Notes: a model not told the origin generated them from the letters alone. A stretch of 64,000 nt of DNA from an uncultured delta proteobacterium (GCA_963745835.1 CAVUZH010000015.1:32001-96000); one strand, 5' to 3'. Positions 57,301 to 63,447 are shown, counted from the stretch's first letter. Numbers and translations are program-made.

Positions 57301-57678
57301 TCCATCCTTGTGTTTGGGGCAATGGGCAGAAAAACTTCAATTTAGCTAACATAGGCACCTGGCCATTTCAAGGGGAAAGCCGCCCCACATCGCGACGCCA
57401 ATGCCACTTTGCCGCGCTTGCTTTTGCTCCAATCCATGTCAGCTCACGCAGATCTCCGAGGCTAAGCAAATCAAGATGATCAGACGGCAATGGATTGCCT
57501 AGAAAAAATTTTAGAGCCGCAAACGGATTGGGTCACCGTTCATCGGTAGTATCGGTGTTCGGTATTGCCATTGGAGCGACGCTGGCATAAAGCGTGAGTT
57601 GAGTTCAATGAATGCTTCGATACCGCCGAGGCATTGTCTCGTCGCGAAATAGATCGTCACTAGCAGGAGAGCTTCACA

Positions 57679-59357
57679 ATGAATCAAAGTGAAACATTGA
57701 GTCGGTTGCATCCGCCAACGGAAAAGTTAGCGCTTTGAACCCGATGGGGTACCCGCCAATCATCGAACAACTGGGTATGGCGCCGCGGTTTGAGAGTCTA
57801 AACGACAAAACGATTTATTTGGTCGATGTTCATTTCGTCGATGGCGACAAACTGCTGCAACAGATGCAAGCTTGGTTCGCCGAACACTTGCCCAAAGCAA
57901 GAACGATCTTGGCGAGCAAAGCGGGTGTTTACACGGAAGATGATCCAAAGCTCTTTAGCGAAATCCGCGAGCACGATGCTGCCGCCGTTATGGCGGTCGG
58001 GCATTGAAGCACGTGCGCGCCGGCGGTCGCCGTGCATTGTATTACTCTGGAAAGCCAGTATGGCGTGCCGACGGTGGGTGTCCACGCCAAACCTTTCGCT
58101 TCGGTCGTAAGATCCGTCGCTTATACCAAAGGAATGCCGCATCAGAGGTTCGCCTTTGTCCCGATGCCTGTGATGGGCAAAACCTCTGCCGAACTGAAAG
58201 CCTATATCGACGGCATCGATCCGGTAACCGGCAAACCCTTAATGGAGGAAATCGTTGAGGCGCTGACAAGGCCGCTGAGCGATCAGGAGAAGCAGAAGAT
58301 CAAGATCGATCGGTCAACGCCGAGGCTGATTGATCCCGACAACGAGAGTAATCTGCAGCGTTTGTTCTTGGATAACGGTTGGACCGACCATTTGCCAATC
58401 GTCGTCCCGACCGAAGAGACGGTGGCAGCGATGCTGTCTGGCACCCGCCGCAAAGCGGATGAGGTGGTGGGCACGATGCGCCCGACACGCACCCGGGAGG
58501 GATGGCAGTTCACCGTGGAGAAGGTTGCGGTGAACGCGGTCATGGCCGGCGCTAAACCTGAATACCTCCCAGTCATCCTGGCGCTTGCGGCCTCAGAAGT
58601 CACGGCCCGACCGAGCACCACCACTTCCGGCGCCACCATGGCAGTAGTAAATGGACCGATCCGGCATCAGATCGGCATGAACTGGGGAATTGGCGCGATG
58701 GGACCTTACAACCACGCGAACGCCACCATCGGTAGGGCTTTCGGACTGCTGTCGCAGAATCTGCAAGGCGGCTCCGTGCCGGGCGAAACCTACATGGGTT
58801 CCCAAGGGAACAACTATGCGTATAACAGCATCACCTACGCGGAAAATGAGGAAAGAAGTCCCTGGACGCCGCTCCACGTCCAGCATGGCTTTAATACCAG
58901 CGACAGCGTTGTCAGCCTATTTAGGCATTGTCGCACGACGTCGTTCCAGATGGGACTTCGAGAAAAACATTGGCGCAACCATGTTCAGTATCTGCTTCGA
59001 GGTCTAAACCCACACACACCGCCCACTCTCATACTCGATCCGATCGTGGCGCGGCAATTTATTGATAGGGGCGGCTTCGATACCAAAGATAAATTGATTC
59101 AATGGATCTACGAGCACGCCACTATACCGGCCGGCATTTATTGGGATGATCAACTTATTCAAAACTACATTCACCCAAGGGCCGTCAAGGGCGAGGAGCC
59201 CTACGCCACCAAGCTCAAAGCGGCTGCCGATGAACTCGTACCGATGTTTCGCTTAGACGAAATAGAGGTGGTGGTCGGCGGCGGCGAAACCAACGGCTAC
59301 TGGCGAGTGATGGGTTGCAACTACGACAAGAGCGTCTCTATCGACGCATGGAGATAG
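57679..59357 (+). CDS. Probable selenoprotein (UxxC; UGSC-family-like) of unknown function; TGA 58005-58007 recoded
   Basis: ORFs 57735-58007 and 58032-59357 share a frame and read VMAVGH*STCAPAVAVHC, with a hairpin after the TGA. The RBS (AGGAG)-ATG at 57679 needs one extra base near 57734 to join; otherwise the start is 57735 or 57744. Confidence 0.85.
58014..58036 (+). promoter_or_regulatory. Candidate bacterial SECIS element
   Basis: TGCG-cgc-CGGC[GGTC]GCCG-TGCA; the G-containing loop begins 18 nt after the UGA. Confidence 0.65.
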
Positions 59358-59395: not shown

Positions 59396-60424
59396 CTAGC
59401 GCAAGCTAAAGATCTGCTTCCAAAGCTGTTCGTACCTGGAGAACTCCCGGTATTCTTTCTCGCCCAGGCCGTAGACGGTTTTGAGCCCGATAGCCTCGGC
59501 GGGCTCGACTTTCGGATTCGCCGGCACCCGCCCCTCGATACCGAACGCCTTTTGCCCTTCGTCCGAAGCCGCCCAGCGATGAAACAACCACGCGGTGTTT
59601 GGGTGAGGCGCGTTTTTGAAGACGGCGGTGGCGCTGATCAAGCCGACGCCGAAACTGCGCATGTAATTCAATGGCGCTCCCTTCTGCATTCTTGGCAGCA
59701 GATGATGGGTGTAACAGGTTAAGCAGACCGCGCCCTGCCCAGCCGTCAGCAGTTCCGCCAACTGCGGGTGGCCACTATGAAACTCGACATTATTGGCGGC
59801 AATTTTTTTAAACAACTCGATCGCTTTATCGCTGCTTTTATATCTCTGTTCGGCAAAGGCGATCAAAAATTCGGCGTCACGAGGTTCGGCCAACAGCTTG
59901 CCTTTCCATTTCGCATCGGCAAACTCTTCGAAACTCTTAGGCTCGTCCGATTTACTCACCAGTTGCGTATTCCAGGCCGCCACCAACGTGTTGAAACGGG
60001 TCGCGATCCAATAGGAACCCTTGAGATGATTTGAAAACACGTCGGCTTCCGCCGGCAGCTTCTCCAGCACCAAGCCTTGCTCATGCAGCTGCATGATGTT
60101 TTCCAGGTTCATGTGAAAAACATCGCCAATGGTTCTGCCGCCGCGCGCCTCGGAAATCGCCCGGGCGACGATCTTGTCGGAACTTGCTCCGGTGTTGACC
60201 GTCTTGAGACCGGGAAAACGTTTCTCGAATAGCGGCAGAACTTTAGCCGCAGTGTCCGGGGTTAAAGTACCGTAGACGTTGAGCGCGCCGCCCTCCTTCA
60301 ACGCCCGTTGATAAGTCTCTTCGATACTCTGGGCATTGACCGGCAAAGAGTAGATCAGCGTCGCCGCAGAAAGGATGATGCAAAACAATAATTTCCGTAC
60401 CGCTGCTTGGCCGATTAGCCGCAT
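59396..60424 (-). CDS. Extracellular solute-binding protein (Fe/thiamine-type)
   Basis: Signal peptide; ALKEGGALNVYG, AWNTQLV, APHPNTA and SDEGQ. Confidence 0.9.
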   Translation of the reverse strand: MRLIGQAAVRKLLFCIILSAATLIYSLPVNAQSIEETYQRALKEGGALNVYGTLTPDTAAKVLPLFEKRFPGLKTVNTGASSDKIVARAISEARGGRTIGDVFHMNLENIMQLHEQGLVLEKLPAEADVFSNHLKGSYWIATRFNTLVAAWNTQLVSKSDEPKSFEEFADAKWKGKLLAEPRDAEFLIAFAEQRYKSSDKAIELFKKIAANNVEFHSGHPQLAELLTAGQGAVCLTCYTHHLLPRMQKGAPLNYMRSFGVGLISATAVFKNAPHPNTAWLFHRWAASDEGQKAFGIEGRVPANPKVEPAEAIGLKTVYGLGEKEYREFSRYEQLWKQIFSLR

Positions 60425-61386: not shown

Positions 61387-62361
61387 CTACTTCCGGTTCA
61401 ATTCCTGGATGAATCCGCTGTCCTCGAGTTGCTTTACAAACCGCAGATCCATGAAAGTCTCAGGATTGAAGTTCTTGGCGCGGGGATCGCGAGTCGCGAC
61501 CTGATCCAAGACAAATCGTATTCCGCCGATTGTCGGATAGGGCACGCTGGCTAGCTTGGGCGCGTAAAAATCCACCGTGGAGTTCAGAATTTCAGGATCT
61601 TTGATGCCGGTGTATTTGCTGGTTACCTGCTTCGCCAGCTCGCGATTGTTTTTGTATAGGGCGATAGACTCGGTATAGGCGCGCACGAATCTCTGGACAA
61701 GATCCGGCTGTTCTTTGATGAAAGTTTTCTTGGTGACAATCCCGACAAAGGGGAACTCCAGGCCCAGCGCGGCGATGTCGGCGATTTCCTTATAGCCCAA
61801 CTTCTTGGCATGATCCGTAAACGGATCAGCCAATGCGCCGGCGGCAATCCGCCCGGATTGAATGCCGCCCATAATCCCCGCATAGTCTTCCAACTGGACT
61901 AGAGCCACATCTTTCTCCGGTTGCAGCCCCGCTTTTCTGATCGCGAAACGCGCGGATATATCGGTGTTGGAACCGTAGCGCGTCACCCCGATTGCTTTGC
62001 CCTTGAGCTCTTCCATTTTGGAAACCTTGCCCATGATCACGATGGGCGTAGTGTTCAGAGCAACGGCGACCATCGTGACGTCAAAGCCAGCGACACCTGC
62101 CGCGAGAGCGGCCGGACCCCCCATTTGCGCTAACTGGATCTCTCCGGCGACTAACGCCTGGCCCATTGTCGACCCGCTACGTATGTAAGCGACCTCAGTG
62201 CGCAAACCATTTTTCTCGAACAGACCAGCTTCACGAGCCAGCCAAAGGACTGCATGCGGTCCTGACGTGGCAGCGTATCCCGACATCACCCGAGTTAATG
62301 GTTGCGCTGTGACATCGCTGGTCGATAGCAGCAAAAAAAATGCTATCCAGAGTCGGCTCAT
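61387..62361 (-). CDS. NitT/TauT-family ABC substrate-binding protein
   Basis: LWLAREAGLFEKNGL, LKGKAIGVTRYGS and LEDSGFI. Confidence 0.9.
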   Translation of the reverse strand: MSRLWIAFFLLLSTSDVTAQPLTRVMSGYAATSGPHAVLWLAREAGLFEKNGLRTEVAYIRSGSTMGQALVAGEIQLAQMGGPAALAAGVAGFDVTMVAVALNTTPIVIMGKVSKMEELKGKAIGVTRYGSNTDISARFAIRKAGLQPEKDVALVQLEDYAGIMGGIQSGRIAAGALADPFTDHAKKLGYKEIADIAALGLEFPFVGIVTKKTFIKEQPDLVQRFVRAYTESIALYKNNRELAKQVTSKYTGIKDPEILNSTVDFYAPKLASVPYPTIGGIRFVLDQVATRDPRAKNFNPETFMDLRFVKQLEDSGFIQELNRK

Positions 62362-62460
62362 TTTGCCCTCCCTTACTTGATTCTCAGGTCTCTATCGCAG
62401 TATAGGATTAAGCCATCAGCGTCAATCTTGTTGCCGGGCATACAAACAAAGGAGCTGCGA

Positions 62461-63447
62461 ATGAAATACGGCCGTCACTTTTTAGCCGCGAGCCTAATTG
62501 CTCTCGGAGTGCTGTGCCAATCCGCCATTGCTCGTGCGGCAAACATCAACGTCGTTTGGACCAGCGAAGTCGGCCAGTTCGCGCCGCTCTGGATTACCAA
62601 GGAAGCCAAACTGTTTGAAAAGTACGGCAATCAAGTTCAGCTCATTTTCATCCAAGGCGCCGCATCAGCCGCTGCCGCGTTGTCTTCCGGCGACGCTCAA
62701 GTCGGCATGTTCTCGCCGCAGGTAGTAATTTCGACGCCGGCATTGGAACTGGTCATGTTCGGCCGGCTTGGCAACACCATGGACAATCGTATTTACGCCA
62801 GGAAAGGCATCAAGAGCCTCAAGGAAGTCAAACGCATCGCCATCAGCCGCTTCGGCAGCAACGCCGACTTTGCCGCGCGTTATCTCTTGCAGCGCGAAGG
62901 ACTCAGACCCGATACCGATGTGGCGTTACTGCAGGTCGGCAATCAGGCCAATCGAATTGCCGCAGTCGAGACCGCCAACGCCGACGCCGCCATGCTCACC
63001 CCGCCGATGACCTTACAAGCGCGCAAGCTCGGATTTTCCCTGATCGCCGACGCATCCAAGCTCGGTATCCCTTATTCCAGTCTGTTCTTCGTGTCACGCC
63101 GGCCTTATCTTGCAAAGAATCGCGCCGATCTGGTGAATTTCACCAAAGCCATGATCGAAGGGGTACACTATTATAAAGCCAACAAAGAATTCAGCATGAA
63201 AGTCATCGGCAAATACATGAAAGTCCAAGACCGGGAAGTGATCGAAGAAAATTTCCGCGAATATGATTTCCCTTTGAAACCTTACCCTGCCAAAGAATAT
63301 TATGATTTGCCGATCCAGGAAGTCGGCAAGAAGGATCCGAAAATCCTCAAGGAAGATCCTGAGCGTTTCGCCGACCAGTCTCTGGTCAAAGAACTCGATG
63401 CCAGCGGCTTTATCGACAAGTTGACTAAGGAATATAAAGTCAAATAA
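62461..63447 (+). CDS. NitT/TauT-family ABC substrate-binding protein
   Basis: AGGAG RBS before ATG 62461; LWITKEAKLFEKYG, ISRFGS and ELDASGFIDKL. Confidence 0.9.
   Translation: MKYGRHFLAASLIALGVLCQSAIARAANINVVWTSEVGQFAPLWITKEAKLFEKYGNQVQLIFIQGAASAAAALSSGDAQVGMFSPQVVISTPALELVMFGRLGNTMDNRIYARKGIKSLKEVKRIAISRFGSNADFAARYLLQREGLRPDTDVALLQVGNQANRIAAVETANADAAMLTPPMTLQARKLGFSLIADASKLGIPYSSLFFVSRRPYLAKNRADLVNFTKAMIEGVHYYKANKEFSMKVIGKYMKVQDREVIEENFREYDFPLKPYPAKEYYDLPIQEVGKKDPKILKEDPERFADQSLVKELDASGFIDKLTKEYKVK

What the first reader, a model, noticed from the sequence alone, without database searches (positions are those of the whole stretch)
57679..59357. Hidden ~550-aa selenoprotein: in-frame UGA forming GH-U-STC, followed by a SECIS-like hairpin
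Seen in sequence: the 90-aa and 441-aa ORFs are one reading frame broken only by TGA 58005-58007. Readthrough gives VMAVGH-U-STCAPAVAVHC, a UxxC redox motif after a beta-strand and before a helix. A stem-loop CGGC[GGTC]GCCG has its loop starting 18 nt downstream. Established: bacterial SECIS elements are such hairpins with a loop G shortly after the UGA, and the E. coli fdhF loop also contains GGUC. Inference: this is a member or relative of the uncharacterised UGSC (seleno)protein family, fused to a large C-terminal domain (GWTDHLPIVVPT, EKVAVNAVMAG, ANATIGRA, AENEE.SPW). It is transcribed divergently from the cytochrome c oxidase operon. Its function is unknown and it may be an undescribed selenium-dependent redox enzyme that gene callers split in two.
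Basis: partly seen in the sequence, partly recalled or inferred. Interest (0 to 1): 0.85.

Follow-up and report, generated by a model that had tools for sequence, protein, structure and literature searches.

The report
Selenoprotein gene split by gene callers
This is one real 540-residue selenium-containing protein gene of the known but functionally unexplained UGSC family, fused to its usual partner domain, which gene callers cut in two at the selenocysteine codon.

Summary
Window 57735-59357 (+) is one frame interrupted only by TGA 58005-58007. Read through, it matches Pfam UGSC (PF24696) across the TGA at 72.3 bits, against 25 and 27 bits for the halves. In 91 homologous loci the column is TGA in 63 and Cys in 28, never anything else.

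The hairpin downstream is a SECIS element. Its GGUC loop is present in 63/63 Sec forms and 8/28 Cys forms. The core stem pairs in 220/220 cells, with compensatory changes. The genome has selA, selB, selD and tRNA-Sec.

The roughly 350-residue C-terminal domain has no Pfam family and no convincing solved relative. In this genome it is a separate gene directly after each of 5/5 short UGSC genes. A thioredoxin-reductase-like gene lies within the flanks of 40/91 loci, though not beside the window copy.

The ATG at 57679 is out of frame because of a 1-base deletion after 57696, not at 57734.

The family, and a UGSC/"Unknown_1" fusion, were reported in 2007-2008. This scan has noted the module on other genomes 41 times. 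Verdict: real and ordinary for its family; function still unknown.

The parts
57665..57669 (+). AGGAG Shine-Dalgarno-like motif ahead of ATG 57679
   Evidence: Read from the sequence. Conserved in the three close same-genus orthologues (G004, G006, G001) of A3; G003 is diverged here.
57679..57738 (+). Remnant of the ancestral 5' end. It now forms a 19-codon leader frame (ATG..TGA) whose stop overlaps TTG 57735.
   Evidence: Orthologues read from this ATG in frame into the gene. The window lacks one base after 57696. Contigs of two studies share the window's length, and others carry one more base.
57735..59357 (+). Selenoprotein coding sequence as it can be read in the window: TTG 57735 (or ATG 57744) to TAG 59355-59357, 540 residues with Sec at 91
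   Evidence: dN/dS against orthologues is 0.05-0.18 overall. For the 90 codons before the TGA alone it is 0.066 and 0.069, with one low-divergence comparison at 0.69.
57762..58205 (+). UGSC-family domain (residues 10-157)
   Evidence: Pfam PF24696, 72.3 bits, E 7e-20. NCBIfam NF041046, 55.6 bits, below its cut-off of 125.
58005..58007 (+). UGA read as selenocysteine (U91)
   Evidence: TGA in 63 and TGC/TGT in 28 of 91 loci. Cys in 84/84 full-length database relatives. No difference listed at this place in the contigs of 4 runs.
58014..58016 (+). Codon of Cys94, second residue of the U-x-x-C motif (likely resolving cysteine)
   Evidence: TGC/TGT in all 55 rows of A2. The role is inferred.
58017..58035 (+). 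SECIS hairpin: outer pairs 58017-58019 with 58033-58035, bulged C58020, core stem 58021-58024 with 58029-58032, loop GGUC 58025-58028
   Evidence: It meets the published bacterial SECIS constraints (passage read).
58302..59354 (+). Partner domain (residues 190-540): no Pfam or NCBIfam family and no convincing solved relative
   Evidence: It is a stand-alone gene after each short UGSC gene elsewhere in the genome.

Best explanation
Window 57735-59357 is a single functional selenoprotein gene.

During translation, the hairpin at 58017-58035 (GGUC loop, bulged C) is bound by SelB carrying Sec-tRNA(Sec), and UGA 58005 is read as selenocysteine 91. This step is inferred from comparative evidence, not shown biochemically.

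The product has two parts. The first is an N-terminal UGSC-family alpha/beta domain that carries U91-S-T-C94 at a strand-to-helix junction. The second is a roughly 350-residue partner domain of unknown fold class with no conserved cysteine.

The most likely working (inference, about even odds) is a two-part reductase. The partner domain holds a small-molecule or protein substrate. Sec91 attacks it and ends as a Se-S bond with Cys94. That bond is re-reduced with NAD(P)H electrons through a thioredoxin-reductase-like flavoprotein or the general thioredoxin system.

The window copy has lost its ancestral first 18 codons through a 1-base deletion. It probably starts at TTG 57735, whose first bases overlap the leader's stop, or at ATG 57744.
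For: One frame and one domain across the TGA.

TGA or Cys in 91/91 loci. This counts three pairs of identical DNA, all Sec forms, so 88 are distinct.

Synonymous sites are frozen only in Sec forms. The codons CCG GCG GTC GCC occur in 51/51 Sec forms that share the residues STCAPAV. In 23 Cys forms with the same residues, CCG occurs in 10, GCG in 7 and GTC in 15.

Loop GGUC occurs in 63/63 Sec forms against 8/28 Cys forms.

The core stem is paired in 220/220 cells of 55 distinct sequences. There are 11 cells with both sides changed (GC>AU 8, CG>AU 2, GC>CG 1) and one CG>UG, probably about four independent events.

The diverged Sec clades fold into the same GGUC hairpin with z -3.1 and -4.7.

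Sec machinery is present: selA 608.6 bits, selB 394.3 bits, selD 383.4 bits, tRNA-Sec 74.2 bits with anticodon tca.

All 7 UGSC-domain genes of the genome carry one TGA.

dN/dS is 0.05-0.18, and for the part before the TGA 0.066 and 0.069.

Module evidence:
- 5/5 short UGSC genes are followed directly by a partner-domain gene.
- A TrxR-like gene lies in the flanks of 40/91 loci. It is the nearest downstream ORF in 20/84 and the nearest upstream ORF in 9/83.
- That gene scores 313.6 bits on TIGR01292, and its sequence holds the motif CASC.

The AlphaFold model has pLDDT 95.2 and pTM 0.93, with U91 between strand 83-89 and helix 94-109.
Against: There is no direct evidence of selenium incorporation or of any activity.

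The window's own thermodynamic optimum is a different fold, and the region does not fold better than shuffles (z -0.39). Rfam finds nothing. bSECISearch itself was not run.

The window copy has no TrxR-like gene beside it. Its neighbours are cytochrome oxidase genes and a solute-binding protein.

The 5' deletion could mean the copy is decaying. One comparison of the 90 codons before the TGA gives dN/dS 0.69, on few changes.

The compensatory changes come from few clades, and related sequences inflate the shuffle controls.

The link to glycine-reductase protein B is one weak hit of a paralogue (19.6 bits, E 3.6e-4, cut-off 602.2). The window protein itself gives none.
Confidence: 0.9

Rival explanations
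1. The TGA is a true stop. There are two separate genes, a 90-aa fragment and a 441-aa protein that starts at GTG 58032.
For: Table 11 gives these two ORFs. Public gene calls of close relatives are 436-441 aa.
Against: The Pfam domain runs across the TGA and nearly triples its score when read through. Cys stands at that column in 84/84 full-length relatives. The SECIS element is conserved only in TGA forms. The Sec machinery is present. The 90 codons before the TGA are under purifying selection.
Confidence: 0.02
2. The window copy is a decaying pseudogene, with a 5' frameshift in addition to a stop.
For: There is a 1-base deletion after 57696 relative to three same-genus orthologues. The same length is seen in contigs of two studies, so it is probably real and not an assembly slip. 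A 63%-identical paralogue exists on contig 20.
Against: There is no other frame break in 1,620 bases. dN/dS is 0.05-0.18. The lost 18 residues lie in an N-terminal stretch that varies in length and sequence among homologues. TTG 57735 overlaps the leader's stop, which allows re-initiation (sequence). The SECIS element is intact.
Confidence: 0.06
3. It is a genuine selenoprotein, but not a substrate reductase. It could be a general thiol/selenol oxidoreductase or peroxidase-type antioxidant, or a carrier of selenium, sulfur or a metal.
For: The literature treats the family as a probable thioredoxin-like redox protein of unknown function (passages). The U-x-x-C motif fits any of these roles.
Against: The fixed pairing or fusion with a large conserved domain lacking conserved cysteines and the many paralogous pairs per genome (7 here) look like a family of substrate-specific enzymes. 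This argument is indirect.
Confidence: 0.3

Closest known systems
UGSC-containing (seleno)protein family (Pfam PF24696; NCBIfam NF041046; Zhang & Gladyshev 2007, PMC1976440, and 2008, PMC2398784; passages read)
   Same: The domain matches over the Pfam threshold. Sec or Cys stands at the first position of a U-x-x-C motif, and the window's U aligns with the U of a canonical GD-U-GSC paralogue. The function is unknown. A UGSC/Unknown_1 fusion is mentioned in the 2008 paper.
   Different: The motif is U-S-T-C, not U-G-S-C. The score is below the NCBIfam equivalog cut-off (55.6 against 125). The protein is 540 aa and fused, not about 150-200 aa. I could not check whether 'Unknown_1' is this partner domain, because it is in a supplementary figure and supplements are closed.
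Enterobacterial fdhF SECIS element (passage read in PMC4489274) and the bacterial SECIS consensus (passage read in PMC13188914)
   Same: A hairpin directly after the UGA, with a GGUC loop and a bulged pyrimidine on the 5' side of the upper stem. The loop has 4 nt, G is in loop position 1 and is followed by G, the spacing is 17 nt (allowed range 16-37), and the energy is -10 to -11.5 kcal/mol (required: -7.5 or lower).
   Different: The bulge is C at the 16th base from the U of UGA, whereas fdhF has U18. GGUC starts at base 21 rather than 22. The stem sequences are unrelated. SelB binding has not been tested.
Selenoprotein B of glycine/sarcosine/betaine reductase and D-proline reductase (GrdB/PrdB; TIGR01917). 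The chemistry is recalled, not read here.
   Same: Sec in a U-x-x-C context (Table 2 of PMC2398784 lists PrdB as UxxC). It works with a separate substrate-binding partner. It has a genomic link to a thioredoxin-reductase-type electron supply. A short UGSC paralogue of this genome gives a weak hit to TIGR01917 over the Sec region.
   Different: The hit is far below the cut-off (19.6 against 602.2 bits), and the window protein gives none. The partner domain shows no similarity to any described family. No pyruvoyl-forming site has been shown.

Membership tests
UGSC family (Pfam PF24696) | Match to the family HMM over the gathering score | tested here: met
   72.3 bits against a cut-off of 25, residues 10-157 on profile positions 12-158 of 172.
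UGSC family (NCBIfam NF041046, equivalog) | Score over the curated equivalog cut-off | tested here: not met
   55.6 bits against a cut-off of 125. A short paralogue of the same genome scores 141.9. The window protein is therefore a diverged, fused subfamily and not an equivalog.
UGSC family | Sec (or Cys) at the first position of the U-x-x-C motif | tested here: met
   The window's U aligns with the U of GD-U-GSC. TGA in 63 and Cys in 28 of 91 loci.
UGSC family | Literal U-G-S-C motif | tested here: not met
   The window has U-S-T-C.
Bacterial SelB-dependent selenoprotein gene | In-frame UGA aligned with Cys in homologues | tested here: met
Bacterial SelB-dependent selenoprotein gene | SECIS hairpin meeting the published constraints (loop 3-9 nt, G in the first two loop positions, 16-37 nt from UGA, -7.5 kcal/mol or lower) | tested here: met
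   Checked by hand against the passage with the energies. Covariation. bSECISearch itself was not run, and Rfam has no match.
Bacterial SelB-dependent selenoprotein gene | selA, selB, selD and tRNA-Sec in the genome | tested here: met
   All are over their cut-offs. ARAGORN calls tRNA-SeC with anticodon tca.
Bacterial SelB-dependent selenoprotein gene | Selenium in the protein | not testable with these tools
   Needs 75Se labelling or mass spectrometry.
GrdB/PrdB selenoprotein B (TIGR01917) | Match to the family model | tested here: not met
   The window protein gives no hit at E up to 1. A paralogue gives 19.6 bits against a cut-off of 602.2.
Thioredoxin-disulfide reductase (TIGR01292), for the associated flavoprotein and not the window gene | Score over the equivalog cut-off | tested here: not met
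   313.6 against 343.45 bits for the copy next to the paralogue on contig 20. It is TrxR-like but not an equivalog.

The most novel reading that the evidence does not exclude
The UGSC domain, its partner domain and the recurrent TrxR-like flavoprotein form an undescribed class of selenium-dependent, NAD(P)H-driven substrate reductases. The class would be distantly akin to protein B of the glycine and proline reductases. The partner domain would be a fold without a solved relative that holds the substrate, and each of the 7 paralogous sets in this soil bacterium would serve a different substrate.
Probability: 0.4. Interest if true: 0.75.

Novelty: new member of a known kind. Interest (0 to 1): 0.42.

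Why it matters
UGSC proteins are among the most abundant predicted selenoproteins in aquatic metagenomes (255 Sec forms in GOS). A 2026 review still lists them as uncharacterised.

This locus adds no new kind. It is a clean, well-supported example of three things:
- Annotation pipelines cut the gene at the Sec codon.
- Its SECIS element copies the enterobacterial fdhF design (GGUC loop and bulge). That element freezes about 40 bases across phyla.
- The selenoprotein is tied to a fixed partner domain and often to a dedicated flavoprotein. That suggests a concrete in-vitro assay: flavoprotein, NAD(P)H and the two-domain protein. Cys forms in the genome records of cultured alphaproteobacterial strains could supply the protein.

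Tried and rejected
**Single-sequence folding.** The 81-nt and 41-nt windows do not fold better than shuffles (z +0.38 and -0.39), and the MFE fold is not the conserved hairpin. I relied on comparison instead.

**An unbulged 8-pair stem.** It fits only the diverged clade, with 61% of cells paired. The bulged version gives 81%.

**Rfam.** No family matched 57600-58300 at E up to 10.

**PDB by sequence profile.** 0 hits at E up to 1.

**Foldseek against PDB.**
- Full-length model: 0 hits at E of 0.001 or lower.
- Partner domain alone: 2 hits at E of 0.001 or lower, both class I fumarate hydratase. TM-scores were only 0.23-0.25 and rmsd about 16-17 Å, so I do not count them as a fold match.

**ESM Atlas.** For a database Cys-form relative (residues 200-546), 29 of 30 hits were unnamed clusters without a Pfam family.

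**Neighbour scan.** Apart from the TrxR-like gene, nothing recurs in more than 4 of 84 nearest neighbours. I draw no substrate hint from the solute-binding proteins.

**Promoter and terminator scan.** Counts were at shuffle level.

**RNA run X15.** Its contigs cover parts of the gene at 90-99% likeness. DNA can be present in such libraries and contigs cannot show expression, so I make no claim of transcription.

**Complex prediction.** Not used. The only binding claim is flavoprotein to carrier domain, a kind the tool advises against, and it does not concern the window copy.

Full report
**1. The observation**

Table 11 gives a 90-aa ORF (57735-58007) and a 441-aa ORF (58032-59357) on the plus strand, in the same frame. 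Translating 57735-59357 with TGA=U gives 540 residues. The only non-standard step is U91 at 58005-58007, in the context ..AVGH-U-STCAP... The stem CGGC/GCCG with loop GGUC lies at 58021-58032.

**2. It is one gene**

- Each half alone barely reaches Pfam UGSC (PF24696): 25.1 bits on profile positions 13-92 and 27.1 bits on positions 105-158.
- The read-through matches as one stretch at 72.3 bits, E 7e-20.
- NCBIfam's equivalog model NF041046 gives 55.6 bits, under its cut-off of 125.
- A database search found 7,933 relatives among 8,000 scored candidates.
- Of the 120 best, 84 are full length (540 aa or more), and all 84 have Cys at the column of the TGA. The other 36 are 445 aa or less and begin just after that column, which is what a gene caller produces at a Sec codon.
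- A search of cluster representatives gave 4,612 clusters at E up to 0.001 and 526 at E up to 1e-30.

**3. The TGA column at DNA level**

I collected 91 loci:
- 11 from the genome search, covering the window, four same-genus orthologues, a 63%-identical paralogue on contig 20 of the same genome and five family or order relatives.
- 80 from genome contigs.

The column is TGA in 63 and TGC/TGT in 28, with nothing else. Three pairs of these loci are identical DNA (L035=L064, L036=L068, L037=L078), so 88 are distinct. One locus (L033) is from a genome marked unpublished, and no count depends on it.

By their record titles, Sec forms occur in MAGs labelled Chloroflexota, Latescibacterota, Rokubacteria, Binatia, Gemmatimonadaceae, Thermoleophilaceae and others. 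Cys forms are mostly Alphaproteobacteria.

**4. The SECIS element**

Among loci with the same residues STCAPAV after the U or C:
- The four codons that make the hairpin (CCG GCG GTC GCC) are invariant in 51/51 Sec forms.
- In the 23 Cys forms they vary: CCG in 10, GCG in 7 and GTC in 15.

The loop reads GGTC in 63/63 Sec forms and in 8/28 Cys forms.

On 55 distinct 48-mers (A2), the four core pairs (window 58021-58024 with 58029-58032) are standard pairs in 220/220 cells. There are 11 cells with both sides changed (GC>AU 8, CG>AU 2, GC>CG 1) and one CG>UG. These come from roughly four clades, so there are few independent events.

An outer stem with a bulged C58020 is kept in part; the whole structure has 81.4% of cells paired, against 18-58% for slid controls. 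An unbulged register fits only the diverged clade.

Sequences of the diverged clades fold on their own into the GGUC hairpin with z -3.1 and -4.7. The window's own sequence does not stand out: its MFE is a competing register at -15 kcal/mol with z -0.39, and the GGUC hairpin is -10 to -11.5 kcal/mol.

Against the published bacterial SECIS constraints (loop 3-9 nt, G in the first two loop positions and often followed by G or U, 16-37 nt from UGA, -7.5 kcal/mol or lower; passage read), the hairpin passes on all counts. [quoted passage not shown] The window has a bulged C at base 16 and GGUC from base 21. Rfam has no match.

**5. Sec machinery**

- The own genome (7.28 Mb, 25 contigs, 97% complete, 9% contamination) has selA (608.6 bits), selB (394.3 bits) and selD (383.4 bits, itself with one TGA) side by side on contig 22.
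- It also has a tRNA-Sec (Rfam 74.2 bits; ARAGORN tRNA-SeC, anticodon tca).
- All 7 UGSC-domain genes of the genome carry one TGA.

**6. Public reads**

In Logan contigs of three DNA runs and one RNA run from four studies, no listed difference falls on 58005-58007, and listed pieces cross it in each run. One of these runs may be the window's own source. Depth jumps several-fold to more than ten-fold, depending on the run, over 57996-58037. Contigs of other organisms share just these 41 bases and then run on unlike. This is what a frozen Sec-codon-plus-SECIS segment would give.

**7. The 5' end**

- Three same-genus orthologues start at the ATG that corresponds to 57679, behind AGGAG, and read in frame into the gene.
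- The window lacks one base after 57696. That ATG now opens a 19-codon frame ending at TGA 57736-57738, which overlaps TTG 57735.
- Contigs of two studies have the window's length there; others have one more base. The deletion is therefore probably real in a lineage and not an assembly slip.
- The lost residues lie in the N-terminal stretch that varies among homologues.
- dN/dS against orthologues is 0.075, 0.183 and 0.053 overall. For the 90 codons before the TGA it is 0.066 and 0.069, with one low-divergence comparison at 0.69.
- I read the copy as functional, probably starting at TTG 57735 or ATG 57744. I leave 6% for decay.

**8. The protein**

AlphaFold2 with 59 sequences gives pLDDT 95.2 and pTM 0.93. 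The N-terminal domain alternates strands and helices, and U91 sits between strand 83-89 and helix 94-109. The window's U aligns with the U of the canonical GD-U-GSC motif of a short paralogue.

Residues 190-540 have:
- no Pfam or NCBIfam family;
- no PDB relative by sequence profile;
- no convincing Foldseek match. The full-length model gives 0 hits at E of 0.001 or lower. The domain alone (pLDDT 94.4) gives class I fumarate hydratase as best hit at E 7e-4, but with TM 0.25.

Atlas look-alikes of a Cys-form relative's partner part are unnamed clusters in 29 of 30 hits. No cysteine is conserved in this domain. The invariant or nearly invariant residues include D218, T226, E262, N306, N329, R334, E370 and E372.

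**9. The module**

- In the own genome, each of the 5 short UGSC genes is followed directly by a stand-alone gene for the partner domain. The other two copies, the window and contig 20, are fusions.
- A TrxR-like gene (Pyr_redox_2; TIGR01292 at 313.6 bits, under its cut-off of 343.45; motif CASC) lies directly beside 3 of the 7 sets and 2.7 kb from a fourth.
- Across the 91 loci, tblastn finds it in the flanks of 40.
- It is the nearest downstream ORF in 20/84 and the nearest upstream ORF in 9/83. It occurs beside both Sec and Cys forms.
- The window copy has none. Its neighbours are cytochrome oxidase subunits (divergent) and a solute-binding protein.
- A short paralogue gives a weak hit to glycine-reductase selenoprotein B over its Sec region (19.6 bits, E 3.6e-4). 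This is a lead, not a membership.

**10. What is known**

- The 'UGSC-containing protein' was named as a selenoprotein of unknown function in 2007 (passage).
- In 2008 it was counted as a major family (255 Sec and 21 Cys forms in GOS, motif UxxC), said to have a likely Trx-like fold, and reported fused to a conserved domain 'Unknown_1' (passages). That figure is a supplement I could not open.
- Reviews of 2022 and 2026 still list it without a function (passages).
- A full-text search for 'UGSC' found 17 papers, 9 of which also hold 'selenoprotein'. In the five I opened I saw no function, partner or flavoprotein link; the others I saw only as listings.
- This scan has 41 earlier notes on the same module in other genomes. 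My results agree with them and were obtained independently before I read them.

**11. Verdict**

This is a real selenoprotein gene and a new member of a known family. Its interest lies in the unsolved function of that family rather than in this locus. By the record titles of contigs identical to loci from three genomes of the same family, the host is probably a Binatia-type soil bacterium.

Noticed in passing
G000 contig 22: 65479-70161 (loci L001, L004, L005): selA, selB and selD lie side by side, and selD itself has one in-frame TGA. It is therefore probably a selenoprotein form of SelD.
   Followed up: no
G000 contig 17: 19076-19936 (L132): A TrxR-like gene 2.7 kb from a UGSC/partner pair has one in-frame TGA. 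It may be a Sec-containing flavoprotein or a broken gene.
   Followed up: no
window 57996-58037: In soil and rhizosphere metagenome runs, depth rises several-fold to more than ten-fold over these 41 bases. Contigs of other organisms match only this stretch and then diverge. It is a nucleotide-level island made by the active site plus the SECIS element.
   Followed up: partly
window 57679-57738: A 19-codon leader frame was created by a 1-base deletion. Its TGA overlaps the TTG at 57735 (TTGA), an arrangement that could allow termination-reinitiation.
   Followed up: partly
window 59396-60424 (-), 61387-62361 (-), 62377-63447 (+): Three ORFs for putative periplasmic solute-binding proteins lie without adjacent permease genes in view. 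The first matches SBP_bac_8/6; the other two were not scanned. A similar pair of binding proteins flanks the UGSC/partner pair on contig 17 (L025).
   Followed up: partly
L119: 1490-1537 and 3262-3309: One contig, from a MAG labelled Hyphomicrobiales, carries two tandem fused Sec-form genes of the diverged clade.
   Followed up: no
P0194, P0212, P0232 (709-741 aa): These long relatives match the partner domain in two stretches and have no Pfam family. They may be tandem partner domains or a fusion to another unknown part.
   Followed up: no
L080: A contig from a MAG labelled Candidatus Nitrosocosmicus (an archaeon) carries a Sec form with the bacterial-type hairpin directly after the UGA. This is probably a binning error and was not examined.
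   Followed up: no
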